This document shows, piece after piece, positions 30,920 through 53,420 of a stretch of 64,000 nt of DNA (position 1 is its first letter; every line of letters starts with the position of its first letter). Source of the stretch: a virus. Taxonomy: Duplodnaviria; Heunggongvirae; Uroviricota; Caudoviricetes. The translations under genes were made by a program, and so were the position numbers. Location: IMG/VR virus record IMGVR_UViG_3300033144_006348. The stretch is one strand, 5' to 3'. The notes under the pieces are model-generated. The model was not told where the DNA came from and searched no databases. It saw nothing but the letters and a program-made list of their open reading frames with translations.

Positions 30920-32845
30920 TTAAATTCCTGGAGTTCCTCCAAAATTACCCATTCCTCCAAGACCTCCCATTTCATCTTCTTTCTTTTCTGGATCAATAAT
31001 TTCATCAATTTTAGTATCGACTTCATATTTCTCAACATCTCCCCAATCAATTTGAGGTAAGTATCTTTTCTTTGAATACTCTTTTGGAATTCCAATTCTT
31101 TCAAGGTTTTCAATTAGAGTGGTTATTTCTCCCATGTATCTAGATTCTCTTTCAAATTGGAGTGACCTAGGTGGAGGTAGCGAAATATCTACATTATCTA
31201 AAATAGTTAATGCTTCCTCAGGATTTATAATTTGAAAAACTTTTAGTATTAACTCTCTAAGTTGATGACTTAAATATTTTTGATGTCCAATTACAGTTCT
31301 AGCAAATAAAATATTTTCTTCACTTAATGCAGCTTTATTTGAAAGGTTCTCTTCAATACCGATAAAAGCTGGTGGAACTCCCAAACTAGCTACCATTTGA
31401 TCTCTCATAAATTTTAGTTCATCAACTTTACTTCTAATATCTACATTTCCTTCATTAAAGGTTGAAATATCTACAAATGGTTTCCCATCTTTTTGTGGAA
31501 TATATACATCCTCAAATGTTGTGATCATACTTGGAATTGTATCTACTGTTCCAAAACTATCGAGACTAACTTTTCTTTTTCTGAACTCTTCTTTCATTAA
31601 CTCAATAGCTTTTCTTGCGTCTCTTGGGAGACCGATTTCAATAGCAATTTTTCGTTTTTCTGTGGATCTTGAAAGTCTTTGAACTGCTAATGCTGTTTCT
31701 AATGAAATTAATACCTTAGCAGAATATTGAGTACTATCAAAAATTGATTCTCCATATGGATAATATTTTGTTGTCGGTAATATAAAATGGACCATTTTGT
31801 CAGGTGGAATATAGCGAATATTTACTGATTTGTTATAGTCAGAATTTGTTAGCATTGATAACACCAAATCTTTTATTTCTTTGTTATCTTTAAAATCTGC
31901 CATTTGTGGGAGTTTATTTGCTAAACTTTTTAGAATAGCGATACATATGTTATTAATGGCTTCATCTGCTAAAGTGGCACCAGGAACTGCAGTAATGGAA
32001 GGAAAAACTAAATAACCAAAGCAAATAGGGAACATTGCACTTTGTAGTTTAACAACAAACTCTGGAGTGTGAAATATCAACTGTAGATTTTTTAATAATT
32101 TTTTCTCTTTTGCCTTTTCTTTTTTGGTAGGTTTATCTAGATCGGCTTCTTGAAGAGCTGTATAATCCATGTTAATTTCATATTCTTCTTTATCAATAGT
32201 TTGAGTTATTGTTTCTCTAAATCCATTGATGTACTGATCTTTGATTACTTGCTGATATAGTGGAGCTTCATTTAATAGGGTCTGACTTGTTAGAGCTTCC
32301 TTCGGACCTCCGATTTCACAAAATAAATCTCCATACATTAGAGTGTTTCTAACAATAAGATCCAAACGCCTTTCCAAATCTATTAGTTTTATAACTTCTT
32401 TGACATATCTTGTTCTTGAAGCTGTGGGTACCTCATCCTCAAGAAAGGTTTGTGGTTTTACTTCCAATACCATTTTTGTAATATCATCAGGTGATAAAAT
32501 GTTATCGACTAATACATTTAAAGCTCTATAAGCATAATTTATTTGAGATACAATTGCTTGATATGCTTTATACCTCATAATTCGACTACCCTGACCAAAT
32601 GCTGTAGGAGTTACACCTTGAGCAAATAACCCACCACCTGCACCTGTTATTTTCACATCTGCTGTTTTTGAAATTAAACTACGAACTAGTTGGATATAAC
32701 CATTTCGGCCTGAGTTGTTTTTAAAAACTAAAATATCTTTAACAGCTTGATCTAATTTAGCATCAATTTTACTAGTTTGTGTCTTAACGATAGTGGATTT
32801 TAATTTCTGTAGTGTGTTCTGTACTGATGTTAGAGGACCTGCCAT
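30920..32845 (-). CDS. Putative portal protein (641 aa)
   Basis: Size and position upstream of the scaffold/capsid genes. Gly-rich C-terminal tail. No Walker motif, which argues against a terminase. Confidence 0.35.
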   Translation of the reverse strand: MAGPLTSVQNTLQKLKSTIVKTQTSKIDAKLDQAVKDILVFKNNSGRNGYIQLVRSLISKTADVKITGAGGGLFAQGVTPTAFGQGSRIMRYKAYQAIVSQINYAYRALNVLVDNILSPDDITKMVLEVKPQTFLEDEVPTASRTRYVKEVIKLIDLERRLDLIVRNTLMYGDLFCEIGGPKEALTSQTLLNEAPLYQQVIKDQYINGFRETITQTIDKEEYEINMDYTALQEADLDKPTKKEKAKEKKLLKNLQLIFHTPEFVVKLQSAMFPICFGYLVFPSITAVPGATLADEAINNICIAILKSLANKLPQMADFKDNKEIKDLVLSMLTNSDYNKSVNIRYIPPDKMVHFILPTTKYYPYGESIFDSTQYSAKVLISLETALAVQRLSRSTEKRKIAIEIGLPRDARKAIELMKEEFRKRKVSLDSFGTVDTIPSMITTFEDVYIPQKDGKPFVDISTFNEGNVDIRSKVDELKFMRDQMVASLGVPPAFIGIEENLSNKAALSEENILFARTVIGHQKYLSHQLRELILKVFQIINPEEALTILDNVDISLPPPRSLQFERESRYMGEITTLIENLERIGIPKEYSKKRYLPQIDWGDVEKYEVDTKIDEIIDPEKKEDEMGGLGGMGNFGGTPGI

Positions 32846-36811: not shown

Positions 36812-37222
36812 TCATTTTATTGTTTTTTCTAAATCCTCTATAATAGGATCTGAGGTTTTAGCTTCTGGTAGTATTTTTCTAGCAAAATATTTTCCTATTT
36901 TTTTAGCATACTCACGTAAATCTTCAGTTCTTGGATCAGGTGGATATTTATGTTTTAGAATAGAAGATGAGATAGATGTAGCAGAGACAGAATTACTAGA
37001 TTGACTAGTGGATGTAGAAGAACAGGTATAATCAGGTTCTGGTACTCCCATGATATTAGTAACCCAATCAGTTTTTCCTTCTCCATCACATTGATAACAA
37101 GGAACCTCATATTCTCCTTCCATCCAGTAGTCATTTGTAATAAAAGTTACTCCAGTTCCATCACATAAACTACATATTACTTCGCCTTCTTCAAGATTAA
37201 GTTCCTTCATTGTAATCTCCAC
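36812..37222 (-). CDS. DnaJ-type zinc-finger (CxxCxGxG) mini-protein with a Ser/Thr-rich tail
   Basis: CSLCDGTGV..CYQCDGEGKTDW: two CxxCxGxG repeats plus the conserved KTDW motif. Confidence 0.45.
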   Translation of the reverse strand: MEITMKELNLEEGEVICSLCDGTGVTFITNDYWMEGEYEVPCYQCDGEGKTDWVTNIMGVPEPDYTCSSTSTSQSSNSVSATSISSSILKHKYPPDPRTEDLREYAKKIGKYFARKILPEAKTSDPIIEDLEKTIK

Positions 37223-37475
37223 ATATGTTTTTTATAATGTCTCTATCAATATCTTCCTTTAACTTTTCAGCCATCACTTTAAAAATCTCAAATTCTCCAG
37301 TGAACCAACATATATCAGGACGTTCTCCCATAGCATTAGTAATCCAATCAGTTTTTCCTTCTCCATTACATTTTGAGCATGTAAATTGAGCATATTGGTA
37401 TCCCAAATATGGAGTACACCCTTCTCCCTCACACTTAGAACATATTACTTCGCCTTCTTCAAGTACAATATCCAA
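37197..37475 (-). CDS. DnaJ-type zinc-finger (CxxCxGxG) mini-protein
   Basis: CSKCEGEGC..CSKCNGEGKTDWITNAMGERPD, a paralog of 36812 and 39119. Confidence 0.45.
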   Translation of the reverse strand: MDIVLEEGEVICSKCEGEGCTPYLGYQYAQFTCSKCNGEGKTDWITNAMGERPDICWFTGEFEIFKVMAEKLKEDIDRDIIKNICGDYNEGT

Positions 37476-37694
37476 TTATTCTTCCCCCTTAATTAGTTTC
37501 CCATTTTCTTTTAAGACCTCATTAGCTATATTATACTGATCTTCCTCACTAAATTTACTAATATCAAGATATGAAATCAGATGATTTATAAAGTCGTCAC
37601 AAGATTCTTTGCACATTCCTCTAACTATGCATGTTTTACAAGGAGTGGGATGTTTAATTGAAGTATTAAATTCATCAAGTCTTTTATAGATCAT
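37476..37694 (-). CDS. Cys-rich zinc-ribbon mini-protein of the P-C-x2-C-I-V family (PCKTCIVRGMCKESC), encoded in the replication block
   Basis: Same core motif as the tRNA-array mini-proteins. Confidence 0.4.
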   Translation of the reverse strand: MIYKRLDEFNTSIKHPTPCKTCIVRGMCKESCDDFINHLISYLDISKFSEEDQYNIANEVLKENGKLIKGEE

Positions 37695-39079
37695 ACTGTT
37701 AATACCCTTTTTCTTTCATCAAGTTCTACAAATTCATCTTTTGCTAAAACTTTATTGATAAGATACTCACAATAATCTTCATCAAGATTGGTTAACATAT
37801 CCAACGATCTTGCTATACTGAAAGACTTAATCTTTTGTTTTTTTGTTATTTTTCCTTGGTTAAGAATGCTTGTAGCATGGAGGCAAGATTGATGAAATTC
37901 TTCTATTTCTCCATTTACATATAATGGATAAATATCGCCTGCGTAATCTCGCAACCACCCTTGAATTTCAGAAAATAAAAGGATTGGATAAAATAAAGTA
38001 AGATAAATTTTTAAATCTTCATTATATGTATTGGTTTCATCATTATATATTCTATCAACATCAATTCGTTTGAAGTTGAGAGTATCTGCTACATGATCAA
38101 CTAACCTCTGTGCAGCATCAATACATCTTTCTCCTTTGTAGAATCTTTTATCAATATCGGCAGACTTAAGGCTCATTTTCCTAACATATCCATCACCATC
38201 TTTAACATGAATATATCTTGCCATTTGACTTTGCTTATAAGGACCAGATGAATCATAAGTCATATTCAATTTAATTTTATGCTTATCCCAAACAATTTTA
38301 GTAAAAAATTCATAGAATAAAATATCTCTCCAGTTTGCACCTCCTAAAATATGGAAGTTGAGAAAGTCTCTATTATATTTTTTACATTCATTTAAGAGCG
38401 GGATTAATGGAAGGACATAGATAATACAGGGGATAGACATATCAGTAGCCATATTAGCTACTATACCACCTGTTCCATGTGATTGAAAATAAGGAAATAG
38501 TTCATTGTCTCTCATGATTCGAGTATATATATCCCAAAGTTTAGGAGTTCTAAAATGATGAATATATACAATTTTATCACGAACTACTTTTGGAAGGTCT
38601 CTTGCTTGTGTGTATGACTCTAAATTGAGTTTATAAACATCGTAGAAATTATGGAATATTTTACATCCGGGTCCAGGTGGAATATCTAAAATAAAAGCTT
38701 TGGCAAATAACTCATGATTATTTTTCAACCATTCATAATACATTTTAAATAAATTCTCTGATCTTTCTCTGGAAAATCGACCAGTAGATATTTGAAACCC
38801 GCCGCTATCAACATAAAAATCACATTTATCAAATATACCCATCTCTATACACTGATTAAACATTCGGGTTTCATTTATATCATGTTTTTCAAGTTTCTTT
38901 TTCTTATCGAAGTTTTGTCCATATGAGTGAAGAAAACCAGAGCAAGTAGTCGACAAAAATTTCGCTACATCTGCCCTAGTAAAGTTATCATGAAATTGTC
39001 CTCTTTCTCCCTTAATAAATCTATCAACAATGCCTGCTAAGGTTTCAAATCCAGCAAGGATATAACCACTTCTAACCAT
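37691..39079 (-). CDS. tRNA-guanine transglycosylase superfamily protein, DpdA-like (candidate DNA 7-deazaguanine transglycosylase)
   Basis: FYVDSGGFQIS matches the TGT catalytic-region signature TDSGGFQ. 462 aa with no obvious Zn-binding C-terminal motif, consistent with the DpdA-type branch. QueE-like gene nearby. Confidence 0.45.
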   Translation of the reverse strand: MVRSGYILAGFETLAGIVDRFIKGERGQFHDNFTRADVAKFLSTTCSGFLHSYGQNFDKKKKLEKHDINETRMFNQCIEMGIFDKCDFYVDSGGFQISTGRFSRERSENLFKMYYEWLKNNHELFAKAFILDIPPGPGCKIFHNFYDVYKLNLESYTQARDLPKVVRDKIVYIHHFRTPKLWDIYTRIMRDNELFPYFQSHGTGGIVANMATDMSIPCIIYVLPLIPLLNECKKYNRDFLNFHILGGANWRDILFYEFFTKIVWDKHKIKLNMTYDSSGPYKQSQMARYIHVKDGDGYVRKMSLKSADIDKRFYKGERCIDAAQRLVDHVADTLNFKRIDVDRIYNDETNTYNEDLKIYLTLFYPILLFSEIQGWLRDYAGDIYPLYVNGEIEEFHQSCLHATSILNQGKITKKQKIKSFSIARSLDMLTNLDEDYCEYLINKVLAKDEFVELDERKRVLTV

Positions 39080-39118
39080 TCTAAAACTCCCTTTTATTAT
39101 TTTGTTCCCAATTCACAT

Positions 39119-39334
39119 TTAAAATTCTATAGCACCAATTGCTAAATCTTTTATACCAACTGCTTTTTCAATCCAATCTACTTTACCATGACCAGAACAT
39201 TTAAAACATATTTTTTTATGATCCTTGATATTTAAAATAGATCCTACTTCTATTCCGTAACCATTACACTCAGGACATAACTCTTCTCCTTCTTTTACAA
39301 TTACAAAATCTCTCGTCCAATAATTAAAGGCCAC
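39119..39334 (-). CDS. DnaJ-type zinc-finger (CxxCxGxG) mini-protein
   Basis: CPECNGYG..CFKCSGHGKVDW. Confidence 0.45.
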   Translation of the reverse strand: MAFNYWTRDFVIVKEGEELCPECNGYGIEVGSILNIKDHKKICFKCSGHGKVDWIEKAVGIKDLAIGAIEF

Positions 39335-39900
39335 TATTCCATAACCTCAATAGTATAAGGCTCACCAACAGCGAAAGAAAATTCTGCAGCAGCTTTAAGA
39401 GCAGTCAAAACTCTTTTAGATGGAGACTTAACTCTTTTAGAAGTAAAAAATGATCCCAATGCTGTATTTGCTCCTGACCCTATAGCATTATAGTATCCAT
39501 ACGTTTTATTCATTTGGAAATCAAGTAAAATGTCATAGAGCTCACCTTTCCATGCTATTAAAAAATTGGACTGTTGTATTACAGCTCCATCTTCATCATT
39601 ACATATAACTCCCTTTTTAGTAAAATACTCATACATAGCATCAGGCATTTCTTTTATATCTTTAGGTGGAGTAAAGTAATCAGGTTTTATAAGTTGGCCA
39701 GTTCTAATACTTCCAGTAAATCCAATAAGATAGTCTCCATTCCAAAAAAGCTTTTCACAAAAAACAGGTCTATATTCAGCACGAGGATTAGTTGCAACTC
39801 CATCCGCACCCATATAAACTTTGCCATTTTGTAACAAACCAACAACACATGACATACTTATTCTCCCTTTAACTGTATATTTTCTTGCATCCTTAAACAT
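39334..39900 (-). CDS. HslV/proteasome-beta-like Ntn-hydrolase peptidase
   Basis: VYMGADGVAT and AIGSGANTALG parallel the HslV motifs (GDGQAT, AIGSGG). An N-terminal Ser (MSCVVG) sits where HslV has Thr. Confidence 0.45.
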   Translation of the reverse strand: MFKDARKYTVKGRISMSCVVGLLQNGKVYMGADGVATNPRAEYRPVFCEKLFWNGDYLIGFTGSIRTGQLIKPDYFTPPKDIKEMPDAMYEYFTKKGVICNDEDGAVIQQSNFLIAWKGELYDILLDFQMNKTYGYYNAIGSGANTALGSFFTSKRVKSPSKRVLTALKAAAEFSFAVGEPYTIEVME

Positions 39901-40661
39901 TTTGCTAAGTCAAAAACATAATCGTAAATATGCAGACCCTTAGACGAAGCTATCATTTCTCCATCTTCAACTCCAATTTCTGCTGCAACATACTCTTTTA
40001 ATAATTGAATTGCTGCTAAATTTGCTGGTAATCCATTCCACATATCCCATGATCTAAAATATGGATAAAAATGTAATTTGCCGTCCTGTATTCGTGTGTC
40101 TATATGTCTTAAACATGGAGGATCTTTAAGTAACATATCTGTTGGATGTGCCACCTGTAAAACCATTTGATTATTTCTAAACCCTTTATTTTTATAAGTC
40201 CATATCAGTAGATCTATTTGATTAAGACAAGTACACTTAAACTCTTTATCATAAAAAATTATCTCTAACTCAGATAATGTATCTAGTTCATTAATATAAA
40301 TATCAACCTTACCAATATAATGCAACGCTGCTGGAGGAATAGGATATCTTGTTAATCTCTGACCATAAGTGTAACTCTCCCCTTCTTTTAATTCTCCAGT
40401 CATCAAATAAGGAAGATACCCATCTAAATAATCATCTGCAACTGGATTTGGAATCCCATACTGTGGTTCAATTTGTGGTAGTAAAGGTCTTTCGCCAGGA
40501 TGTGTAATATGAATATCAACATAATCAAATTCCAACCTTTTTTGACCAGCATATGACCCTCTATCAATTGTAAAAACGCTTCCCTCAGTTATCATTCTAA
40601 ATAATGTTTGAAACCAAGCATCTCCTAAATGTGTAGCTTTTATATCTTGTTTATTTAACAC
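39858..40661 (-). CDS. Thymidylate synthase (ThyA) family enzyme; may be a dNMP hydroxymethylase rather than a true TS
   Basis: DPPCLRHIDTRIQDGKLHFYPYFRSWDMWNGLPANLAAIQLL parallels ThyA LPPCH..DGKLS.QLYQRS.D.FLGLPFNIASYALL. Confidence 0.55.
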   Translation of the reverse strand: MLNKQDIKATHLGDAWFQTLFRMITEGSVFTIDRGSYAGQKRLEFDYVDIHITHPGERPLLPQIEPQYGIPNPVADDYLDGYLPYLMTGELKEGESYTYGQRLTRYPIPPAALHYIGKVDIYINELDTLSELEIIFYDKEFKCTCLNQIDLLIWTYKNKGFRNNQMVLQVAHPTDMLLKDPPCLRHIDTRIQDGKLHFYPYFRSWDMWNGLPANLAAIQLLKEYVAAEIGVEDGEMIASSKGLHIYDYVFDLAKCLRMQENIQLKGE

Positions 40662-41010
40662 CGTGAAGAATACCTCCTTGTGGGATTACTACAGCAGTTC
40701 CTTCTTGGGACATTAATTCTACAGAAGTCAATTGACTTATTAAATTTTTATCAGTAAGTTTCCCATATACGTCTTCGTATCTGAGAACTTTAAGAATCCT
40801 GTTTTTAATAACTATAGTCTGGCCTCCATGTTGAAGATGAAAAATTAAAACATCTCCAACTTTAATTGCAGAGACATCTTCTCCAACTGTTACAACTCTT
40901 CCATAACCTTGAGGATCTATAATTGCATCAGTAGGAGCAATTATTCCTCCACTAGATTTTTGTCTCTTTAATTCTTCAACGATAATCTTGTCTTTTACTG
41001 CTTCCAGCAT
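40651..41010 (-). CDS. GroES/gp31-like co-chaperonin
   Basis: Size about 110-120 aa. N-terminal MLEAVKDKIIVEELKRQKSSGGIIAPT fits the GroES pattern (roof hairpin, mobile loop GGI). Confidence 0.5.
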   Translation of the reverse strand: MLEAVKDKIIVEELKRQKSSGGIIAPTDAIIDPQGYGRVVTVGEDVSAIKVGDVLIFHLQHGGQTIVIKNRILKVLRYEDVYGKLTDKNLISQLTSVELMSQEGTAVVIPQGGILHGVK

Positions 41011-41296
41011 CTTGTTTTCTCCTTTTCATTTGATATTTTCTTGCTCTATCTTGCATCTCTTTCTTTTTTTCTTCCTCTTTTTTGAGCATTCTGATTGCTC
41101 TAGCTCTTTTCTTCCTCTTTTTTATACTAGGTTTTTCATGAAACATAGAATCTCGAAACTCTTTTGCGATTCCGCTTTTAGAATACTTTTTCCTGAACCT
41201 CTTGATAAGTTCGTGAGTAGATTCTCCCTTTTTCTGGACAACACATATTCCAAAATTCTCTTCTGGCTGATAATGTTCAGGTCTTTCTAAGTGCAT
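40976..41296 (-). CDS. rpsU: Ribosomal protein bS21-like protein with N- and C-terminal extensions
   Basis: ..ICVVQKKGES..LIKRFRKKYSKSGIAKEFRDSMFHEKPSIKKRKKRARAIR aligns with bacterial bS21 (..VIKV.[41 protein letters not shown]). Confidence 0.5.
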   Translation of the reverse strand: MHLERPEHYQPEENFGICVVQKKGESTHELIKRFRKKYSKSGIAKEFRDSMFHEKPSIKKRKKRARAIRMLKKEEEKKKEMQDRARKYQMKRRKQDAGSSKRQDYR

Positions 41297-41583
41297 TTTT
41301 AATCATCTCCTTCCTTAACCTCTTCACGAAAGTTATAATTAGGTGTCCTAAAAGAGGCACACCCAGACCAACGATTACTGGACTCAAACTACCAAGAACC
41401 CATGCAAGATCTGTGTTCATATTTAACATCCTTTTAACGAGGAAATAACAATTTTGTCCTCGCCCTTCTTTTTAAATAGTAAAAACCATATAATCTTCCA
41501 AACATTTTGATCAGGCCTATTACTTGCAGACCCTCCGTCTTTAGATTCTAGTTGAATACTATATTTTCTCATTTCTTTCCTCC

Positions 41584-42270
41584 TTATACAAAACCATAAA
41601 TTATATGACTTCGTGACGAAAAATTGAATTTGTACTTCTCTGCAACATCAAAAACTTCTCCTGAATTTTTGATTAGCGTACTTCTATTTGTACCCTCTGG
41701 CATTAACCAAACTCTTCTACTTGCGAATCTATCTTTTTTCATTAATTGAGATAATATTTCTAAATAATCAATCACAGTAGATCGAGTCTCATAAACAATC
41801 TTAATATAAACATCATCAAAATCTAATAATTCTTTAGTTTTTTCAACCGCTTCTCTGAGATCTTCAGGTGTAAATATTTTTGGTGAATATATAAACTTTA
41901 CATTTTTAGCCTTAGATGTTGATAAAACTAGTCGTGGTAATTTATATCCATTTGACTCAACATTTACAATTGGATACTCTAATTCATTTAATAATGCAAG
42001 AGTTTCAGCATAATGTTTCGGTACCGTAGGTTCTCCACCTGTTATTAACAAACCGCAATTTGTATCATCTATCTGTTTTTGAATGTCTGATAAAAGGTGG
42101 GGTGCCTCTGCTGAGATACGCATTTTTACAGATGTATCACACCAAGAGCATTTGAGGTTACACGTTTTGAACCTGAGGATAAGCATTGCTCGGCCCATAT
42201 CTGGACCTTCCCCTTGAAAACTCCTAAAATTTTCGATTAGTCTTACCGATTCCATAAATTCCCCTTTCAT
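41584..42270 (-). CDS. queE: Radical-SAM 7-carboxy-7-deazaguanine synthase (QueE)-like enzyme
   Basis: IENFRSFQGEGPDMGRAMLILRFKTCNLKCSWCDT fits the QueE N-terminus (F.T.QGEG..G.P..F.R..GC.L.C.WCDT). A GGEP motif is also present. Confidence 0.55.
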   Translation of the reverse strand: MKGEFMESVRLIENFRSFQGEGPDMGRAMLILRFKTCNLKCSWCDTSVKMRISAEAPHLLSDIQKQIDDTNCGLLITGGEPTVPKHYAETLALLNELEYPIVNVESNGYKLPRLVLSTSKAKNVKFIYSPKIFTPEDLREAVEKTKELLDFDDVYIKIVYETRSTVIDYLEILSQLMKKDRFASRRVWLMPEGTNRSTLIKNSGEVFDVAEKYKFNFSSRSHIIYGFV

Positions 42271-42286
42271 TTTTTATTTGTTCTAA

Positions 42287-45200
42287 TTAAAAAGTCAATA
42301 CTTCCATGTTTTTCTGTACATCTAATAACGGTTTTAACATCAATTCATATCTATCAACAAATACAAATTTTAGAGTTGCTTTAGTATCTCTTATGAAATA
42401 ATCTGGTAATTTTTCCTCTTCGTCGGGGATTGCTATTACTTGTAACTTTTTCCCTTCTGAAATAAACTTATGATACTTGTTCCTAACATCTTCTGGAGCT
42501 TTCATAATATCAACGCCTGAAACCCAATACATATATGCTCTAGCACCAGGTCTATGACTCATATACATTATTTCATTCCATGCTTCCATAGCCTTAACTC
42601 CCTGTGGAATGAGTTTATAATCTTTCAATGGTCTTCCATATGACACAGGCCTTGCTATGGTTTTACTTCCTTCCTTAATTAATCTGATAAATTCCCCTTC
42701 TTTACTTTGGACAAATTTTAATAGGCCTGATATTAATATCTTTTCAGATTTTAAAATTAACTCTGAAAGTTCAGTTAGAAACTCTTTTGATTTACTTGGG
42801 TAGTCTGATCTTTTAATCTCTACTCCCATATAACTAATTTCGTCCACATCTTCTCCTTCTATATTTATAACACGAATTGCATATCTCTTTTTAGCTAAAA
42901 ATAAGCCTCTTGAAATAACCAACTCATTTTTTAACATCAATCTGTTAAAGTCCATATCTGTATTATGTTTCTTTACAACTTCAATAATTTTATCATTGTT
43001 TAAAAACTCTTTTATTTTAGAACACCAAGAAAGAATATTTTCAACTGTCTTATCTTCTGGAAAATTTTCAAAACAACAAAAAATTGAGTCAGTATCACCG
43101 GTTACAATGTATTCATTACTTCTATCTGGCATTGCCTTTTCAAACATTTCTTGTTTAGTTAGAGGATTTGGTTTTACATATGGTAGTCCTGTACTTAAAT
43201 GCCTCATAAAAGCATCAGCCTCAATGATAGAAGTTTTTAGAGCTTCTTGCCCTGATAGTGTTACTGCAGCAGCTAGAGATGTATCAAAAAATCTGAATGC
43301 TTTATTTGCAACAACTCCATATAAAGTATTAGCTAGCACTTTATAAACTAATTGCCTTGTATAAAAGAATGCTCTTCCATCTTGATCTTTCTTGTCGATT
43401 GCCTCAAACATCTTCTTTTTATATTCTTTTCTGGACTTCATTAAATTATCAACAATTTCTCCAAAAACAGAAAACTCTTTCTTCTGAGGTTTGAAAAAAC
43501 AACCATTAATAGTAAATATTAATTCATCATCTTTTATTTTTTTAAACAGTTGATCCTTAGAAACTTTAACTAATTTATTTTCATACAATGGGTCAATATA
43601 CACTTCAATTTTTTCTGGTAGATTGTCTGGATAATATGTCAATTCATATCCTAAATGAGGATCTTTTGTTTTCATTACATAACTATTTACCCCTATATTG
43701 TATGTAATCATTAAACTTGGATATAGTGAAGCAAAATCAAAGTCTGTGATATGATCATAGATTCCAGGAATTGGTTCAAATACAAATGCTCCTGGATAAT
43801 CTTTCTTTTTAACATGAGGATCAGCATTTTTTGATGCAAGTCCCTTTTTATTCAAGTATGAAACCATCAATGTATCAATTTGTCCGAACGGTGAAGATCC
43901 TGTATCAAAACTTGCATTACAAATAATCCTTAACTCATTCAACAAATTTATATGAGATAATTTATTTTCAAGACTCTCCAAAATTTCAGCATCTCTAATA
44001 TTATACTCTATCGTTGTATTTAACATCTTCCAGTACATTTCGTTAAATTTAAGAGGAAGTTGTATCTTGGTTATTTCTAATTCATGTTGTGCAATAAAAC
44101 CAAGCTTATAGTTCTCCATCTTTGTGAATGTAAAAAATTTATATAAAAACTCTTGATCCAAAATAACACAACCTGGAATATGGCAAATATATTTAGAACC
44201 ATCAATATACACTTCTCCAAAATTTGAAAGTGAATTAGGCGGCATCCCTATTTTATTCATACGGTTATAAATATAGTCCATATCAAAGTTAATGAAGTTC
44301 CACCCACTCATAAAATCTGGATCATCTTTTTTAAAGTCTTTAATAAAAGTATTTAATAACTGTCTTTCATTACTGAATATTTTAATTTCAACTCCTTCTT
44401 GATCTTTAATTGGTTCAGTTTTATTATCAATAACGTAAGTAGTTTTCTTTCCATTTAAAATTGTAGTAATCATATTGATCGGAAACAATGATTTCTTTGG
44501 ACTGGGGAATATAGTTTCTTTTCCAGTATCAACCTCAATATCACAAAACATCACATTATTTTGTGATTTCTGTGGTTCTCCCTCATTAAAGAAATAATAA
44601 TCCATTGTATGTTTCGCTGTAATTTTATAGTCGCCTTCATATGTAATCTTTGGATCTAAACTAAATCTGTCTTTGTATGGAATTGAAATCTGATTCAGGT
44701 CATCATATGGAACTAATTTCCTTGCTTCAACTCCCTCTGGAACTTGATAACATACAAACTCATCACTTTCTTGGTGATAACATTTAAAATTATGTTTGTC
44801 TCTAAAAATATATAAAACTTTACTCTTTTTATTTAAATACTGAACATCTATTAATCTATACTCATCCGTATAAAACTTATCTGGAATCCTGTATCTATGA
44901 ACGCCTTTTCCTAGCGTTTTCCCTTTTACAGTTGCTTTTATATCAATCTTCTTTCCACTAATTAATTCAGCAACCTTTGCTATATCAGCTTCAAATTTTG
45001 GCATCCATAAATTTTTATTTCTATTTACAAACGATGGATGAACTGTCAAGAATAATTTATAATCCTCCCACTCAAAAATCTGTCCGTGGATATTAGTTAT
45101 TCCACTCTTGGCAATTCCAAAAGCAGACATTGGGCTTCCGCCCATCAAAAGAACTAAATCTGGATTGCATACTCGAATCATATTCATACAATTCTCTTTA

Positions 45201-45550
45201 CATCTTTCAATAACATCATCAGTTGGATTTCCTGTAGTTCCATCTGGATTTAATGTCTGACATAAAACAACATTTGTTAAAAGATATTTAATTTTATTCA
45301 ACCCAAACATTTCAAAATATTGACGAAATACTTTTCCCGCAGTTCCTATCAATGGTTGTCCTTTCTTGATTTCATTCTTTCCAGGATTTTCAGCTACAAC
45401 CACAAGAGAAACTTTAGATAAATCATCTTCTGAATTAGTTTCTATCATACAAGAAGGTGTATCTAAAAGAGGACACACTGAACAGTTTGCAAATGATTTT
45501 TTTATTGATTCCAAATATATACCCCTTTCTTTTTGATTGTTTGTTCCCAT
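42287..45550 (-). CDS. Family-B DNA polymerase with 3'-5' exonuclease and an N-terminal family-4 UDG-like domain
   Basis: N-terminus: C..C.L, VVAENPGKNE..GQPLIGTAGKVF and HPSFV, as in UDG family 4. Exo I DIEVDTG. Motif B KVLANTLYGV. Motif C VTGDTDSIF. Confidence 0.75.
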   Translation of the reverse strand: MGTNNQKERGIYLESIKKSFANCSVCPLLDTPSCMIETNSEDDLSKVSLVVVAENPGKNEIKKGQPLIGTAGKVFRQYFEMFGLNKIKYLLTNVVLCQTLNPDGTTGNPTDDVIERCKENCMNMIRVCNPDLVLLMGGSPMSAFGIAKSGITNIHGQIFEWEDYKLFLTVHPSFVNRNKNLWMPKFEADIAKVAELISGKKIDIKATVKGKTLGKGVHRYRIPDKFYTDEYRLIDVQYLNKKSKVLYIFRDKHNFKCYHQESDEFVCYQVPEGVEARKLVPYDDLNQISIPYKDRFSLDPKITYEGDYKITAKHTMDYYFFNEGEPQKSQNNVMFCDIEVDTGKETIFPSPKKSLFPINMITTILNGKKTTYVIDNKTEPIKDQEGVEIKIFSNERQLLNTFIKDFKKDDPDFMSGWNFINFDMDYIYNRMNKIGMPPNSLSNFGEVYIDGSKYICHIPGCVILDQEFLYKFFTFTKMENYKLGFIAQHELEITKIQLPLKFNEMYWKMLNTTIEYNIRDAEILESLENKLSHINLLNELRIICNASFDTGSSPFGQIDTLMVSYLNKKGLASKNADPHVKKKDYPGAFVFEPIPGIYDHITDFDFASLYPSLMITYNIGVNSYVMKTKDPHLGYELTYYPDNLPEKIEVYIDPLYENKLVKVSKDQLFKKIKDDELIFTINGCFFKPQKKEFSVFGEIVDNLMKSRKEYKKKMFEAIDKKDQDGRAFFYTRQLVYKVLANTLYGVVANKAFRFFDTSLAAAVTLSGQEALKTSIIEADAFMRHLSTGLPYVKPNPLTKQEMFEKAMPDRSNEYIVTGDTDSIFCCFENFPEDKTVENILSWCSKIKEFLNNDKIIEVVKKHNTDMDFNRLMLKNELVISRGLFLAKKRYAIRVINIEGEDVDEISYMGVEIKRSDYPSKSKEFLTELSELILKSEKILISGLLKFVQSKEGEFIRLIKEGSKTIARPVSYGRPLKDYKLIPQGVKAMEAWNEIMYMSHRPGARAYMYWVSGVDIMKAPEDVRNKYHKFISEGKKLQVIAIPDEEEKLPDYFIRDTKATLKFVFVDRYELMLKPLLDVQKNMEVLTF

Positions 45551-45581
45551 TTAAAAAAATAATTACTATATATATTAATAA
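45543..45581 (+). promoter_or_regulatory. GTTCCCATTTAAAAA box + 18-nt spacer + TATATATATTAATAA; candidate promoter driving rightward into the GC-rich non-coding segment
   Basis: Near-identical composite to 49522-49560, with the same spacer length. Overlaps the polB start codon on the other strand. Confidence 0.4.
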
Positions 45582-45590
45582 CTGTCATAG

Positions 45591-45982
45591 TCAATTCTTG
45601 TGATTGGCAATTATAGAAACTGCCATGGTTTCTGGGCTTTTAGTTTCACAAGAGATATCTAAGGCCGAATTCGATGCTAGGGATGTACAGCATTGGATTG
45701 CCCGGTCGGGTCTAACTTTTACTCCGGTACATGGCTTAGTTTTCCCAAATTCCATATTTTCCCAAATTCTACTAGTGGCTTTAAGGAGGGCCAAAGACAA
45801 TGTAAAATAATTTTATAGAGGCTGCAAGGAAGTGCGCCAATAGAGCGTTGCGTATTGATCCTCGGTATACCCGAATGCCTGATAGGAGGGGGCAAAAAAG
45901 TCATGAGATTATAAAGCAAAATAATCATTTTAAATAATACAGCCAGAGATACCTTTAGTGGGGAAGCGCTTGGTAGCGTGCC
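45591..45982 (+). ncRNA. Candidate structured non-coding RNA (~390 nt), class unknown
   Basis: GC content far above genome background. Only short mutually overlapping ORFs on both strands. Bracketed by the promoter-like composite motif and a strong terminator. Confidence 0.3.
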
Positions 45983-50303: not shown

Positions 50304-50381
50304 CGGGGTGTAGCTCAGTCTGAGTAGAGCGCTCGGTTTGGGGCCGAGGTGTCGGAGGTTCGAATCCTCTTACCCCGACCA
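50304..50381 (+). tRNA. tRNA-Pro (anticodon TGG)
   Basis: Hand-folded cloverleaf. Acceptor CGGGGTG/TACCCCG, anticodon loop TTTGGGG, T-loop TTCGAAT, A discriminator, encoded CCA. Confidence 0.8.
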
Positions 50382-50422
50382 TTTTAGAAGTAAACTAAAA
50401 CAGTGAAAGGGAGAATTAGTGA

Positions 50423-50698
50423 ATGAATCTTAGGAAAAAAAGTTATAAAAGTATTGTTGCACCATTGGTCAAAATGGCAGGGGATCTAAAAGATTACGCC
50501 GACAGTCAAAAAACTGTAATCTTAGATTTGGTAGAGAAGAAAACCAAGATTGAGAGCGACATGGAATCATCACAGCTTGAAATAACAAGATCACAATACA
50601 CCTCAGAAAAGATTTCAGAATTGTTAGCTTCTGATGGGGTTGACGACTATGAAGAAGATCCAGAACAAGATGAAACAAAACCAGAAATAACAGAATAG
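50423..50698 (+). CDS. Small acidic hypothetical protein (91 aa)
   Basis: Lies between two tRNAs. RBS GAAAGGGAG. Confidence 0.4.
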   Translation: MNLRKKSYKSIVAPLVKMAGDLKDYADSQKTVILDLVEKKTKIESDMESSQLEITRSQYTSEKISELLASDGVDDYEEDPEQDETKPEITE

Positions 50699-50706
50699 AG
50701 ATGAGT

Positions 50707-50791
50707 GCCAGTGTGGCGTAACTGGTAGGCGCGCATGATTTAGGATCATGTGTCTTAGGGCGTGGAGGTTCAACTCCTCTCACTGGCACCA
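50707..50791 (+). tRNA. tRNA-Leu (anticodon TAG), type II with long variable arm
   Basis: Acceptor GCCAGTG/CACTGGC, anticodon stem CATGA/TCATG, loop TTTAGGA, encoded CCA. Confidence 0.8.
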
Positions 50792-50822
50792 TTTTTAATT
50801 CACGAATTGCGAAAGGAGTATT

Positions 50823-51059
50823 ATGAAACAAGATGAAATTGATAGAGTAGAAAAAGTAAAACAGGAACACGCACAAAATTTAAAAGAAAAGATGAAATCA
50901 ACTGGAGATAAATTTCAGGATTTCGTAAACTGTTTAGAATATATGAAACACGAGTTTTGTTATGATGAAATAAAGGTAATAATATCAAGCTCCTCTAGTA
51001 ATCCAACGCTTGAATGGTCCATAGAAACCTCTAGAGAAAATATAGAGACTAAAAAATGA
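50823..51059 (+). CDS. Hypothetical protein (78 aa)
   Basis: RBS GCGAAAGGAG 7 nt before the ATG, directly after tRNA-Leu. Confidence 0.4.
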   Translation: MKQDEIDRVEKVKQEHAQNLKEKMKSTGDKFQDFVNCLEYMKHEFCYDEIKVIISSSSSNPTLEWSIETSRENIETKK

Positions 51060-51454
51060 GTCAAGAATTTGTACAATTTACTTTTCCATGTTCTGATTGT
51101 ATAGTCAGAGCAGCATGTAAAGACCAAGAAAGATTAACAGTTAAGGATCTATATAACACTAAATCTGCCAAATGTCTTACAATACCAAAACTCGAAGATG
51201 ATAAATCATATCATAAAGTCTTAATGGAATGTATGGCAAATTTATTCAAAGATATAATGGGCAGTGTACAAAAAGATGAAGATCCAATAGGAGTGAATAA
51301 AGAAAACAAACTTCCTTACAGATATGTTACATTATTTTATCAGATGGCATGTGCTATGCAATACATGGTAAATTCAACAAGCTGGAAAATAGGTGAATTG
51401 AAAGATTTTGATAGGGATGAAATAAATAGAAAGTTGAAGCTTGCTAAACTGTGA
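51056..51454 (+). CDS. Cys-motif protein related to the P-C-x2-C-I-V family (FPCSDCIVRAACKD)
   Basis: Core motif present; 132 aa. Confidence 0.4.
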   Translation: MSQEFVQFTFPCSDCIVRAACKDQERLTVKDLYNTKSAKCLTIPKLEDDKSYHKVLMECMANLFKDIMGSVQKDEDPIGVNKENKLPYRYVTLFYQMACAMQYMVNSTSWKIGELKDFDRDEINRKLKLAKL

Positions 51455-51798
51455 AAAAAAATATTCATGAACTTCTAAAAATATGTAATGAAAATAGTGG
51501 AAAAATCCTAAGATCAAAAGAGATTTTAAAACTATTTGGATATTCTACAAACACTAATGTTAATGAAACAACAGCTGGCTATTTTTTAACAATGGCGGGT
51601 AATTCTCCTGGTTCTGGTACGCCACAAATGTGGAAAATAGGTAGTTGGGTAATTGTTACAAGAGATGAACTAAATAGTTTAGTAAATCCGAAAGACATAT
51701 GGGAAGGTAGATGGACAACAATAAAATATAATCAATATTTATTTCCTAGAGACCGTATTCCATGGTGGAGACTAAAGGAATATGGTGGAAAATTATGA
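51451..51798 (+). CDS. Hypothetical protein, tandem paralog 1
   Basis: LLKICNENSGKILRSKEILKLFGYS..WKIGSWVIV..WWRLKEYGGKL. Confidence 0.4.
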   Translation: MKKNIHELLKICNENSGKILRSKEILKLFGYSTNTNVNETTAGYFLTMAGNSPGSGTPQMWKIGSWVIVTRDELNSLVNPKDIWEGRWTTIKYNQYLFPRDRIPWWRLKEYGGKL

Positions 51799-52130
51799 AA
51801 GACATATATGATCTGCTTAGAATATGTAATGAAAATAGTGGTAAGGTTTTAAAAACTCCAGAGATTTTAGAACTATTTGGATACTCTATAAAAAGTAGCA
51901 TATTTCAGACAAAAGTTATAGAATTTTTGTTTTTTCAAGGATATATACATCCATCAAACTATTGGAAAATTGGAAGTTGGGTGCTTCTCTCTTATAAAGA
52001 ATTAAGAGAATATGAACCAGAAGAAAGACAAGCATATTTTGAGGCAAGTAAAATATCTAAAAATCTATATCTATATGATAAAAATAAAGTTGAATGGTGG
52101 AATCTAAAGGAATATGGAGGTAATCTATGA
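51762..52130 (+). CDS. Hypothetical protein, tandem paralog 2
   Basis: LLRICNENSGKVLKTPEILELFGYS..WKIGSWVLL..WWNLKEYGGNL. Confidence 0.4.
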   Translation: MVETKGIWWKIMKDIYDLLRICNENSGKVLKTPEILELFGYSIKSSIFQTKVIEFLFFQGYIHPSNYWKIGSWVLLSYKELREYEPEERQAYFEASKISKNLYLYDKNKVEWWNLKEYGGNL

Positions 52131-52302
52131 CTATAGAGGCATTTCAAATATTATCTAATTTTTATTCTACAATAGTTCTAATAGGAATGGCGGTATGGTG
52201 GAGTCGTAAGAGTAAAATAGATAGACTTGTAAAGGGTATTCTCTTAATCGGTGGTATGATGGAAATTTTTACTATTATTTTAAATTTGTAGAAAGGAAAT
52301 GT

Positions 52303-52680
52303 ATGTTAAGACAAGATGGAGAATATATTATCTTTATTATACAACATAAATATAAAGATAAAAAAGTTGAAGGCTGGAGTAATTCAGGAGATTGTGGTCA
52401 GTTTTTTCCTAACGGGCCATTTACAGAAAAGGAATGGAGAACCAAACATAAAGAAATAGATTATTTTAATGCATCGGGGGATTGCTGGCAAGATACTGGA
52501 GTACATGGAACATATGATCTAAACGAGGCATTTCAGCTTTTAGTGAAGGTAATTCAATGGGCTCCAGAACACAGATTCCGTATTGCAAGAATAGAAATAA
52601 AACAAAAAACAGAACAGGTTGCAGAAGCCAAAGGGAACGAAAGTAAATCAAAAGAAGAAGTAGAAGCAGTATTAACATAG
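52303..52680 (+). CDS. Hypothetical protein (125 aa)
   Basis: RBS GAAAGGAAATG. Its stop abuts tRNA-Thr. Confidence 0.4.
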   Translation: MLRQDGEYIIFIIQHKYKDKKVEGWSNSGDCGQFFPNGPFTEKEWRTKHKEIDYFNASGDCWQDTGVHGTYDLNEAFQLLVKVIQWAPEHRFRIARIEIKQKTEQVAEAKGNESKSKEEVEAVLT

Positions 52681-52681
52681 T

Positions 52682-52758
52682 GCCGATGTAGCTCAGCAGG
52701 CCAGAGCTGGGGTTTTGTAAACCTCATGTCGCAGGTTCGATTCCTGTCATCGGCCCCA
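52682..52758 (+). tRNA. tRNA-Thr (anticodon TGT)
   Basis: Acceptor GCCGATG/CATCGGC, D-stem GCTC/GAGC, anticodon loop TTTGTAA, encoded CCA. Confidence 0.8.
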
Positions 52759-52776
52759 TTTATGAAAGGAGAATCA

Positions 52777-53301
52777 ATGCAAAAACACACCGATATTACA
52801 GTTGGGTTATTTGGCACATGTGACAACATTCCTTGGCGTATACCCTTTATCGAACGGTATGAAAAAGAAGGAATAAAGTGGTTTAATCCCGATTATGGTT
52901 CTGGATGGCATCCAGGATGCATACCTGAAGAGAATTATTTTTTAAACAACGCTGAAATCATCTTATTTCCTATCCTAAAAGACTCCCTAGGGTCTGGTAG
53001 TCTTGCAGAGATAGGGTTCAGTATACAGAACGTAGTACGAAATATTCAAAATGGTAAACAACAGTTCCTTATAGTACTCATAGATGATGACTGTACTGAT
53101 GAACGCAAAACGGATGAAGAAAGAAAAAGGTCTATCAAGGATAGAAAGTTAGTCAAAACTAAGTTAATGGAAAAACTGTCATATCCATCCATAACCATAG
53201 TTAATTCGCTTGAAGAGATGCTTGATCTTAGTGTCGATCTTTACATACTTGCGAAGAAAGGGGAGACAGTAGAAGATAACAGCGAAAGTACGGCTTCTTA
53301 A
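52777..53301 (+). CDS. Hypothetical protein (174 aa)
   Basis: ATG 52777 lies 18 nt after the tRNA CCA, with RBS GAAAGGAG. Confidence 0.4.
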   Translation: MQKHTDITVGLFGTCDNIPWRIPFIERYEKEGIKWFNPDYGSGWHPGCIPEENYFLNNAEIILFPILKDSLGSGSLAEIGFSIQNVVRNIQNGKQQFLIVLIDDDCTDERKTDEERKRSIKDRKLVKTKLMEKLSYPSITIVNSLEEMLDLSVDLYILAKKGETVEDNSESTAS

Positions 53302-53307
53302 TTTAAT

Positions 53308-53399: not shown

Positions 53400-53420
53400 T
53401 TTAAAAGAAAGGAGTGAAAA

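What the first reader, a model, noticed from the sequence alone, without database searches (positions are those of the whole stretch)
40976..41296. Phage-encoded ribosomal protein bS21 homologue with terminal extensions
The ORF aligns by eye with bacterial bS21 across its conserved core (FKR..EK.G...E.R.R.F.EKP...RK....A). It has about 15 extra N-terminal residues and a highly basic C-terminal extension. It lies immediately upstream of the GroES-like gene (40651..41010) and is flanked by the QueE-like (41584..42270) and HslV-like (39334..39900) genes.
Basis: partly seen in the sequence, partly recalled or inferred. Interest (0 to 1): 0.6.

Follow-up and report, generated by a model that had tools for sequence, protein, structure and literature searches.

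The report
Phage-encoded ribosomal protein bS21 with extensions
This is a real copy of the small bacterial ribosomal protein bS21 carried by an uncultivated large phage, with extra conserved tails at both ends; phage bS21 genes, including ones with N-terminal extensions, are already well documented, so it is a new lineage-specific example, not a new phenomenon.

Summary
The ORF at 40976..41296 (minus strand, 106 aa) is real and is a bS21 homologue. It scores 46.2 bits against PF01165 (gathering score 27) and 39.7 bits against TIGR00030 (cut-off 28.95). It scores 54.6 bits against a profile of cellular bS21, versus at most 15.4 bits for 2000 shuffles of the same sequence. Relative to cellular bS21 it has about 15-16 extra N-terminal residues and about 33 extra C-terminal residues. 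AlphaFold predicts that the C-tail continues the last helix.

Both extensions are conserved in more than 100 metagenomic protein clusters; the N-terminal motif is [HY]-Y-x-P-[DE]-E-x-x-G-I-C-V-V. All examined relatives lie in one syntenic phage module: UDG-PolB, QueE-like, bS21, GroES-like, ThyA-like, then DnaB and the portal. They sit on contigs up to 248 kb. A sister clade has QueE-like directly next to GroES-like with no bS21, which marks a discrete gain or loss at that junction.

No cellular genome searched carries the extended form. The phage uses strong AAGGAG Shine-Dalgarno sites and has Arg at the Bacteroidota Tyr54 position, so this is not the published Bacteroidota-phage type.

The most likely function, which is inferred, is replacement or supplementation of host bS21 on the 30S platform. 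Phage bS21 and its N-terminal extensions are already published, so this is a new member of a known kind.

The parts
40976..41296 (-). Complete bS21-homologue gene (106 codons plus a stop at 40976..40978)
   Evidence: ORF listing. PF01165 46.2 bits and TIGR00030 39.7 bits, both above their curated cut-offs. 104 homologous clusters, all carrying PF01165.
41249..41296 (-). N-terminal extension, residues 1-16 (MHLERPEHYQPEENFG). It carries the lineage motif [HY]-Y-x-P-[DE]-E-x-x-G that leads into I-C-V-V.
   Evidence: Alignments A1 and A3. Among 105 sequences: Y9 in 91, P11 in 75, E13 in 100, G16 in 101, C18 in 100. AF2 predicts coil with pLDDT 57-72. Absent from the cellular bS21 genes inspected.
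41078..41248 (-). Canonical bS21 core, residues 17-73, including R33-F34-R35-K36 and E54-K55-P56
   Evidence: Profile matches. Invariant columns R33, F34, K36, K40, E46. AF2 helices at 27-41, 43-51 and 58 onward.
40979..41077 (-). C-terminal K/R/E-rich extension, residues 74-106. It is predicted to continue the last helix to residue 105.
   Evidence: It lies beyond the end of both family profiles. 13 K/R and 7 D/E, net +6; family median length is 37 residues. AF2 gives a single helix 58-105 with pLDDT 95-97 for residues 61-90.
41307..41316 (-). Shine-Dalgarno sequence AAGGAAGGAG, 10 nt upstream of the bS21 ATG
   Evidence: Read from the sequence. GGAGG-type sites also precede bS21 in L001 and L005.
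41019..41024 (-). Shine-Dalgarno AAGGAG for the GroES-like gene, embedded in the codons for the bS21 C-tail (K-R-R-K)
   Evidence: The 35-nt overlap of the two genes is identical in L169 and L170. Overlaps in other relatives are 50, 44 and 8 nt, and in L007 the genes are 2 nt apart.
40651..41010 (-). GroES/Cpn10-like co-chaperonin gene (119 aa). It overlaps the bS21 3' end by 35 nt and is always the next gene downstream in relatives.
   Evidence: PF00166 E=1.3e-8. phrog_3188 co-chaperonin GroES E=2.5e-10, and phrog_931 head morphogenesis E=9.7e-6. Synteny.
41277..41572 (-). Two small ORFs (49 aa and 50 aa) between the QueE-like gene and bS21. The 50-aa ORF overlaps the bS21 start by 20 nt.
   Evidence: no Pfam match. 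Two ORFs of similar size (49 and 47 aa) occupy the same place in L169. In L001, L003, L005 and L007 the radical-SAM gene is followed directly by bS21.
41584..45550 (-). Upstream genes of the same tightly packed co-directional block: the UDG-family-B DNA polymerase fusion (42287..45550) and the QueE-like radical SAM gene (41584..42270)
   Evidence: Pfam domains PF03167, PF03104 and PF00136 on the orthologues. A sigma-70-like site (TTGACT-18-TATAGT) lies at 45594..45565 just upstream of the polymerase, but such sites are no more frequent than chance in this region.
39334..40661 (-). Downstream genes of the block: ThyA-like (39858..40661) and HslV-family peptidase (39334..39900)
   Evidence: PF00303 E=5.9e-12; TIGR03283 101 bits, below its cut-off. 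phrog_1040 E=1.3e-13.

Best explanation
The gene encodes a functional, selectively maintained homologue of bacterial small-subunit ribosomal protein bS21, carried by an uncultivated T4-like, probably jumbo, myovirus.

During infection the protein is most likely made from the same transcription unit as the replication and nucleotide-metabolism genes and the GroES-like co-chaperonin. It then most likely binds the host 30S platform at the bS21 site, next to the 3' end of 16S rRNA (the anti-Shine-Dalgarno sequence). There it would replace or supplement the loosely bound, exchangeable host bS21.

The canonical core would provide the 16S rRNA anchor. The lineage-specific N-terminal extension and the roughly 50 Angstrom longer charged C-terminal helix would project from the platform towards the mRNA exit and SD-helix region and the 30S head. 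From there they could bias initiation towards phage mRNAs, which carry strong AAGGAG SD sites, or help the phage protein out-compete the host copy.

Shown here: homology, conservation of both extensions, fixed synteny, phage origin and SD usage.

Inferred: expression timing, ribosome incorporation, and any selectivity for phage mRNAs.
For: - Homology: PF01165 and TIGR00030 are above their curated cut-offs. All PDB sequence hits are bS21. The shuffle control gives 54.6 versus at most 15.4 bits.
- Selection: 104 clusters at 40-97% identity keep the core and the N-terminal motif. dN/dS against L170 is 0.22 overall and 0.13 in the core, from small counts.
- Fixed position: QueE-like, bS21, Cpn10-like, ThyA-like is the gene order in L001, L003, L005, L007, L169 and 13 distinct IMG/VR contigs. 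PolB identity across them is 53-71% and portal identity is 62-75%.
- Sister clade: five contigs (PolB 45-48% identical, up to 277 kb) have QueE-like directly followed by Cpn10-like with no bS21. bS21 is therefore a clade-defining insertion or loss.
- Phage context: gp23-type MCP, T4-type portal, DnaB.
- SD usage: SD motifs of at least 5 nt precede about 35 of 91 ORF starts, against about 3% background.
- The position equivalent to the Bacteroidota ASD-sequestering Tyr54 is Arg in 102 of 105 family members; E. coli has Lys there.
- Structure: AF2 mean pLDDT 82.8, with helices matching the bS21 layout and a 48-residue terminal helix.
- Published knowledge: phage bS21 from HTVC008M incorporates into E. 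coli ribosomes (PMC6375957). The E. coli bS21 C-terminal helix lies beside the SD helix and contacts h37/A1167 of the head (PMC7550191). N-terminal extensions of phage S21 were proposed to aid competitive binding or phage-mRNA initiation (PMC7162821).
Against: - There is no experimental evidence for this protein. Expression, timing and ribosome binding are not shown.
- The host is unknown.
- The Foldseek match of the AF2 model to bS21 chains is not significant (best E=0.5), as expected for a small extended helical protein.
- The N-terminal extension here is acidic (net -3) and about neutral across the family. That does not fit the published 'basic and aromatic, RNA-binding' description, so direct RNA binding by it is doubtful.
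- Ribosomes carrying the heterologous HTVC008M bS21 were only about 5% active in vitro. Incorporation therefore need not stimulate translation.
- Promoter and terminator scans were not above chance, so the operon assignment rests only on tight gene packing and overlaps.
Confidence: 0.7

Rival explanations
1. The protein does bind the ribosome, but its role is to shut down or throttle host translation. Ribosomes carrying it would become poor at initiating on host mRNAs, or generally less active, with no positive selectivity for phage mRNAs.
For: Ribosomes carrying HTVC008M phage bS21 had about 5% of wild-type activity in vitro (PMC6375957). The long extra helix and N-terminal extension could obstruct the SD-helix chamber or restrict head movement, given where the E. 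coli C-terminus lies (PMC7550191).
Against: The phage's own genes depend on strong SD sites and need the same ribosomes. The low activity may reflect a heterologous mismatch, as those authors state. The gene sits with biosynthetic and chaperone genes rather than obvious host-shutoff genes.
Confidence: 0.15
2. The protein has left the ribosome and acts elsewhere as a small RNA-binding or chaperone-like protein. It might bind phage transcripts, or act together with the translationally coupled GroES-like protein in capsid-protein folding.
For: bS21 has reported non-ribosomal partnerships (OLE ribonucleoprotein complex, PMC12054373, title and abstract only). The gene is strictly adjacent to, and usually overlaps, the GroES-like gene, which also matches a head-morphogenesis PHROG. 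The conserved, non-basic N-terminal motif with an invariant Cys looks more like a protein-contact motif than an RNA-binding tail.
Against: All hallmark 16S-contacting core positions are retained (RF[KR]K, EKPS, the basic helix), with near-invariance across the family. That conservation is what continued ribosome binding would predict. No domain other than S21 is detected.
Confidence: 0.1
3. The similarity is a chance match of a lysine/arginine-rich low-complexity ORF, or the ORF is not a gene.
For: The C-terminal third is compositionally biased. tblastn with low-complexity filtering found nothing significant in GenBank phages.
Against: 54.6 bits versus a maximum of 15.4 bits in 2000 shuffles. 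Curated thresholds are passed. There are 104 conserved homologues in fixed synteny. A strong SD site is present. dN/dS is below 1.
Confidence: 0.01

Closest known systems
Bacterial ribosomal protein bS21 (RpsU; PF01165 / TIGR00030)
   Same: The core of about 57 residues carries the hallmark R-F-[KR]-[KR] and E-K-P-S motifs and the helix layout. It scores above the curated family cut-offs.
   Different: It is 106 aa, against about 54-75 aa for the cellular proteins inspected. It has 15-16 extra N-terminal and about 33 extra C-terminal residues. The best cellular matches are only 43-49% identical over the core and are spread over several phyla. It is encoded by a phage rather than a cellular rpsU locus.
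Phage-encoded bS21 of huge and aquatic phages (Mizuno et al. 2019, PMC6375957; Al-Shayeb et al. 2020, PMC7162821)
   Same: A bS21 homologue in a large lytic-type myovirus from metagenomes, with an N-terminal extension. The proposed role is the same: substituting for host bS21.
   Different: The published N-terminal extensions are described as basic and aromatic. Other IMG/VR phage lineages retrieved here fit that description, for example MSYRDRKFMPKGNKPSHVTV. This lineage instead has a neutral-to-acidic, aromatic motif [HY]YxP[DE]ExxGICVV, plus a long K/R/E helix.
bS21 of Bacteroidota-infecting jumbo phages, clades a-e (Chen et al. 2022, PMC9723584)
   Same: Low-GC (about 31-34%) large phages with many tRNAs, chaperone and protease genes, a thymidylate synthase and a bS21 gene.
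   Different: In those phages bS21 is on the reverse strand inside the TerL/portal/protease/MCP module, and it keeps an aromatic residue at Tyr54. Here it is co-directional, sits between QueE-like and GroES-like genes downstream of the DNA polymerase, and has Arg at the Tyr54 position. The phage uses SD sites, which Bacteroidota ribosomes do not recognise according to PMC9976891.
E. coli bS21 C-terminal helix with RLY motif (Watson et al. 2020, PMC7550191)
   Same: The C-terminal residues beyond the conserved core form a helix. In E. coli this helix runs beside the SD helix to the 30S head. Here the predicted helix simply continues further.
   Different: The tail is about 17 residues longer than in E. 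coli and does not end in RLY/KLY. This window's protein ends in DYR, and family C-termini are variable.

Membership tests
Ribosomal protein bS21 (PF01165 / TIGR00030) | Sequence match above the curated family thresholds | tested here: met
   PF01165 46.2 bits against 27; TIGR00030 39.7 bits against 28.95. A cellular-bS21 HMM gives 54.6 bits against at most 15.4 for shuffles.
Ribosomal protein bS21 (PF01165 / TIGR00030) | Hallmark conserved residues (R-F-K/R-R/K in helix 1; E-K-P-S/T before the last helix) | tested here: met
   R33-F34-R35-K36 and E54-K55-P56-S57 are present and invariant or nearly invariant across the family.
Ribosomal protein bS21 (PF01165 / TIGR00030) | Small helical fold like that of solved bS21 chains | tested here: inconclusive
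   The AF2 helices at 27-41, 43-51 and 58 onward fit the layout. The top Foldseek PDB hits are bS21 chains, but E is 0.5 or worse.
Ribosomal protein bS21 (PF01165 / TIGR00030) | Typical length of about 54-75 residues without terminal extensions | tested here: not met
   The protein is 106 aa, with 15-16 extra N-terminal and about 33 extra C-terminal residues. This is a variation on the family, not a reason to exclude it.
Ribosomal protein bS21 (PF01165 / TIGR00030) | Physical component of the 30S subunit at the platform near the 16S 3' end | not testable with these tools
   This needs ribosome purification with mass spectrometry, or cryo-EM, from infected cells.
Phage-encoded bS21 (Mizuno 2019; Al-Shayeb 2020) | Encoded on a bona fide phage genome | tested here: met
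   A gp23-type MCP (PF07068, E=3.5e-32), a T4-type portal (PF07230 on the orthologues) and DnaB lie in the same window or block. Relatives are on IMG/VR contigs of 223 and 248 kb.
Phage-encoded bS21 (Mizuno 2019; Al-Shayeb 2020) | [quoted passage not shown] | tested here: inconclusive
   The extension is present and aromatic (4 of F/W/Y/H), but its net charge is -3 here and the family median is 0. It is therefore not basic.
Bacteroidota-phage bS21, clades a-e (Chen 2022) | Aromatic residue at the F. johnsoniae Tyr54 position | tested here: not met
   An ungapped alignment to a Bacteroidota-type bS21 (9i5v_9, Y54) places R69 there. The residue is Arg in 102 of 105 family members.
Bacteroidota-phage bS21, clades a-e (Chen 2022) | bS21 on the reverse strand within the TerL/portal/protease/MCP module | tested here: not met
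   The gene is co-directional with its neighbours, between QueE-like and Cpn10-like genes and downstream of PolB. The portal starts about 8 kb downstream.

The most novel reading that the evidence does not exclude
The clade-specific N-terminal motif ([HY]YxP[DE]ExxGIC, non-basic, with an invariant Cys) and the extended K/R/E helix turn host ribosomes into phage-specialised ones by a mechanism different from that proposed for other phage bS21 proteins. One possibility is that they recruit a phage or host protein partner to the 30S platform. Candidates are the translationally coupled GroES-like co-chaperonin or the nearby HslV-like peptidase, which might remove host bS21. In this reading bS21 acts early, alongside replication genes, rather than late.
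Probability: 0.12. Interest if true: 0.6.

Novelty: new member of a known kind. Interest (0 to 1): 0.3.

Why it matters
Phage-encoded bS21 is the most common virus-encoded ribosomal protein, yet its mechanism has not been demonstrated.

This lineage offers a clean comparative system. bS21 was inserted at, or lost from, one fixed junction (QueE-like | GroES-like) in a clade of large phages. Sister phages lack it. Two conserved extensions define testable truncation constructs. The host apparently uses SD sites, unlike the Bacteroidota systems studied so far.

None of this changes the current picture. It adds a well-delimited subfamily and a different genomic context, in a replication and proteostasis module rather than the late structural module.

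Tried and rejected
- GenBank phages: megablast of 12 kb around the gene and tblastn of the protein found no significant match. The phage has no cultivated close relative; its portal is only 27-29% identical to those of Bacillus phages AR9/PBS1.
- Source contig: the exact-product look-up for the window protein found nothing. Exact 39-mer scans of IMG/VR and of JGI metagenome contigs also found nothing, so the source contig and genome size of this phage were not recovered.
- Cellular donor or host: the GTDB species-genome scan found only ordinary short bS21 genes at 32-49% identity (best 43-49%) in several phyla (Armatimonadota, PVC group, Cloacimonadota, Desulfobulbia, Clostridia). Apparent upstream matches were non-coding read-through. 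No donor or host can be named. Cluster-member names gave no organism.
- Fold search of the AF2 model was not significant.
- Promoter and terminator scans were at chance level. Rfam found only tRNAs.
- dN/dS against the 97%-identical L169 is uninformative, with 4 differences.
- The 100-aa plus-strand ORF 40988..41290 is the antisense shadow of the K/R/E-rich gene (F/L/S-rich translation) and was dismissed.
- A literature search for a described bS21 and GroES pairing in phages found nothing relevant.

Full report
**1. Observation**

The window has an ATG-initiated ORF at 40976..41296 on the minus strand, encoding 106 aa. Reading the sequence shows no other in-frame ATG/GTG/TTG before codon 51. 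The N-terminal residues therefore cannot be an artefact of start-codon choice. An extended Shine-Dalgarno sequence, AAGGAAGGAG, lies 10 nt upstream at 41307..41316.

The protein matches the following:
- Pfam PF01165 Ribosomal_S21: E=3.6e-12, 46.2 bits against a gathering score of 27; residues 20-69 match profile positions 3-52 of 55.
- NCBIfam equivalog TIGR00030: 39.7 bits against a cut-off of 28.95; residues 22-73.
- PHROG 21469 'ribosomal protein S21'.
- bS21 chains and nothing else among solved structures.

I tested it directly. Against an HMM built from 13 cellular bS21 sequences the protein scores 54.6 bits. The best of 2000 shuffles of the same residues scores 15.4 bits (mean -9.1, sd 3.2).

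**2. Anatomy**

Alignment with E. coli bS21 puts M1 opposite I17. An ungapped alignment with a Bacteroidota-type bS21 (PDB 9i5v_9) puts its V3 opposite C18.

Both family profiles end by residue 73, which leaves a 33-residue C-terminal extension. That tail is mixed-charge rather than simply basic: 13 K/R and 7 D/E, net +6.

AlphaFold2, run with a 105-sequence alignment, gives a mean pLDDT of 82.8:
- Residues 1-26 are coil, with pLDDT 57-72 over the first 20 residues.
- Helices span 27-41 and 43-51.
- One uninterrupted helix spans 58-105, with pLDDT 95-97 for residues 61-90.

At about 1.5 Angstrom per residue, the extra 33 helical residues add about 50 Angstrom.

Foldseek ranks bS21 chains first but without significance (E=0.5). 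That is expected for a small protein that only folds on rRNA, so I rely on the sequence evidence.

**3. The family and its extensions**

A search of 5.8 billion proteins found 104 clusters, all metagenomic, all carrying PF01165, and 66-151 aa long (most 100-145 aa). Across the 105 aligned sequences (including this protein) the core is nearly invariant: R33, F34, K36, K40, E46, E54, K55, P56.

The junction of the N-terminal extension with the core is just as conserved: Y9 in 91, P11 in 75, E13 in 100, G16 in 101, I17 in 103, C18 in 100. The motif is [HY]-Y-x-P-[DE]-E-x-x-G-I-C-V-V.

The extension has a median length of 14 residues, a median net charge of 0 (-3 in this protein) and 3-4 aromatic or His residues. 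The C-tail has a median length of 37 residues and a median net charge of +8.

An exhaustive HMMER scan of 1.84 billion cluster representatives found 272 hits at E of 1e-3 or better. The top hits are again extended forms (80-145 aa), many with G-[IV]-C-V-V. Canonical 64-65-aa proteins first appear at E of about 1e-7.

A codon comparison with an 89%-identical relative (L170) gives dN/dS of 0.22 overall, 0.13 in the core and 0.26 in the N-terminal extension. The counts are small, so this is weak support.

**4. Genomic context and evolution**

The gene lies in a long minus-strand block with minimal spacing:
- UDG-PolB fusion at 42287..45550, followed by a 16-nt gap.
- QueE-like radical SAM gene at 41584..42270.
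- Two small ORFs.
- bS21, overlapping the upstream small ORF by 20 nt.
- GroES/Cpn10-like gene at 40651..41010, overlapping the bS21 end by 35 nt. Its AAGGAG SD site lies inside the K-R-R-K codons of the bS21 tail.
- ThyA-like gene, then an HslV-family peptidase, a zinc-ribbon protein and a TGT-like protein.
- DnaB, then the T4-type portal (30920..32845) and the gp23-type MCP (25867..27393).

The same order (PolB, QueE-like, bS21, Cpn10-like, ThyA-like, TGT-like, DnaB, portal) is found in metagenome contigs L001, L003, L005, L007 and L169, and in 13 distinct IMG/VR contigs. Two of those contigs are 223 kb and 248 kb. PolB identity is 53-71% and portal identity is 62-75%.

Anchoring a search on the ThyA-like gene found a sister group of five contigs (L188-L190, L192, L236), up to 277 kb, with PolB 45-48% identical. 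They have the same module, but QueE-like is followed directly by Cpn10-like. In L190 the two genes end and start 14 nt apart, and there is no bS21.

One intermediate contig, L185, has a shorter 79-aa version.

bS21 is thus a discrete gain or loss at one junction, and it has been retained throughout a deep clade.

The phage has no cultivated close relative. There is no DNA match in GenBank phages, and the portal is 27-29% identical to those of Bacillus jumbo phages AR9/PBS1.

**5. Relation to cellular bS21, and the host**

A scan of one genome per GTDB species found no cellular gene of the extended type. The best matches are 43-49% identical over the core only. They are ordinary 54-75-aa rpsU genes from Armatimonadota, the PVC group, Cloacimonadota, Desulfobulbia and Clostridia. 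Apparent matches to the N-terminal extension were untranslated upstream sequence. No donor or host can be named.

Two features argue against the Bacteroidota host type described by Chen et al. 2022:
- SD motifs of 5 nt or more (mostly AAGGAG) precede about 35 of 91 ORF starts, against about 3% of random 17-mers.
- The residue aligned with F. johnsoniae Tyr54, which sequesters the anti-SD, is Arg in 102 of 105 family members. E. coli has Lys there.

**6. What is already known**

Phage-encoded bS21 is well documented.
- Mizuno et al. 2019 found it on about 1300 viral genomes and contigs. They showed that the pelagiphage HTVC008M protein enters E. coli ribosomes, which were then only about 5% active in vitro (PMC6375957).
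- Al-Shayeb et al. [quoted passage not shown] - Chen et al. 2022 described Bacteroidota jumbo phages with bS21 in the late structural module. They also noted that chaperone and protease genes often neighbour phage bS21 (PMC9723584).
- Watson et al. 2020 showed that the E. coli bS21 C-terminal helix runs beside the SD helix and touches h37/A1167 of the 30S head. They suggested phage homologues may contact mRNA 5' of the SD (PMC7550191).

Other phage lineages retrieved here from IMG/VR carry unrelated, truly basic N-terminal extensions, for example MSYRDRKFMPKGNKPSHVTV, with the gene 2-3 kb from the MCP.

The present subfamily differs in four ways: the extension sequence, its non-basic character, the long K/R/E helix and the genomic context.

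**7. Mechanism**

Best-supported explanation (confidence about 0.7): the protein occupies the bS21 site on host 30S subunits. The retained core provides rRNA anchoring. The two extensions project from the platform near the SD-helix chamber and the head, and they modulate competition with host bS21 or the choice of mRNA.

Co-transcription with the polymerase-to-ThyA block, and translational coupling to the GroES-like gene, are inferred from gene packing alone. Promoter and terminator scans were uninformative.

Rival explanations:
- Inhibition of translation rather than selective stimulation (0.15).
- An extraribosomal or protein-partner role suggested by the non-basic, Cys-containing N-terminal motif and the invariable GroES-like neighbour (0.10).
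- Chance or non-gene (0.01, refuted).

**8. Verdict**

The feature is a new, well-delimited subfamily of an already described kind of phage gene. Interest is modest (0.3). Its main value is as a comparative system with a with-or-without sister-clade contrast and an apparently SD-using host.

Noticed in passing
window 42287..45550 (-): The 1087-aa DNA polymerase is a fusion of an N-terminal uracil-DNA glycosylase domain (PF03167 on the orthologues) with a family-B polymerase. The fusion is conserved in all relatives examined, which are 1075-1087 aa.
   Followed up: partly
window 37691..42270 (-): A QueE-like radical SAM gene, a ThyA-like gene (archaeal-type TIGR03283, 101 bits, below cut-off) and a 462-aa protein weakly similar to queuine tRNA-ribosyltransferase (phrog_887, E=8e-7) are conserved together around bS21. 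This may be a DNA base-modification module (7-deazaguanine or modified pyrimidine). No FolE, QueC or QueD was looked for.
   Followed up: no
window 50304..63301 (+): A dispersed array of 13 tRNA genes by Rfam (11 by ARAGORN; the extra two are at 53308..53396 and 63218..63301), interleaved with many small ORFs.
   Followed up: partly
window 53407..62220 (+): The 13-mer GAAAGGAGTGAAT (up to 1 mismatch) occurs 8 times, all on the plus strand, against 0.23 expected by chance. Where checked, copies lie just upstream of small ORFs in the tRNA region. It is probably a shared leader or ribosome-binding-site element.
   Followed up: partly
window 41277..41572 (-); L169 1458..1753: Two small ORFs (49 aa and 50 aa; the 50-aa one looks hydrophobic) are inserted between the QueE-like gene and bS21. 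ORFs of similar size at the same place were seen only in the closest relative, L169. More distant relatives have QueE-like directly followed by bS21.
   Followed up: partly
L188, L189, L190, L192, L236 (e.g. L190 2007..2956): A sister clade of large phages (contigs up to 277 kb) has the same PolB, QueE-like, Cpn10-like, ThyA-like module but lacks bS21. It also showed no tblastn hit to the HslV-like gene within the 3.5 kb flanks.
   Followed up: partly
window 36812..37475 and 39119..39334 (-); several places in L001-L099: The small proteins at 39119..39334, 37197..37475 and 36812..37222 cross-hit the same stretches of related loci, so they look like paralogues. They recur in variable copy number between the TGT-like and DnaB genes of relatives. 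The 71-aa one weakly matches the DnaJ CXXCXGXG zinc-ribbon family.
   Followed up: no
window 40651..41010 (-): The GroES-like protein also matches a PHROG annotated 'head morphogenesis' (phrog_931, E=9.7e-6). This suggests a role like the phage T4 gp31 co-chaperonin (from general knowledge) in folding the gp23-type capsid protein.
   Followed up: no
window 2881..7692 (-) and 482..2752 (-): Very large ORFs (1603 aa and 756 aa) have no Pfam match at E of 1e-3 or better.
   Followed up: no
window 11467..13353 (+): A 628-aa protein carries an SPFH/Band 7 domain (PF01145, E=1.5e-7), which struck me as unusual for a phage structural region.
   Followed up: no
window 40988..41290 (+): A 100-aa ORF lies antisense to bS21 (F/L/S-rich). 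It is the mirror image of the K/R/E-rich coding strand and is very unlikely to be a gene.
   Followed up: yes
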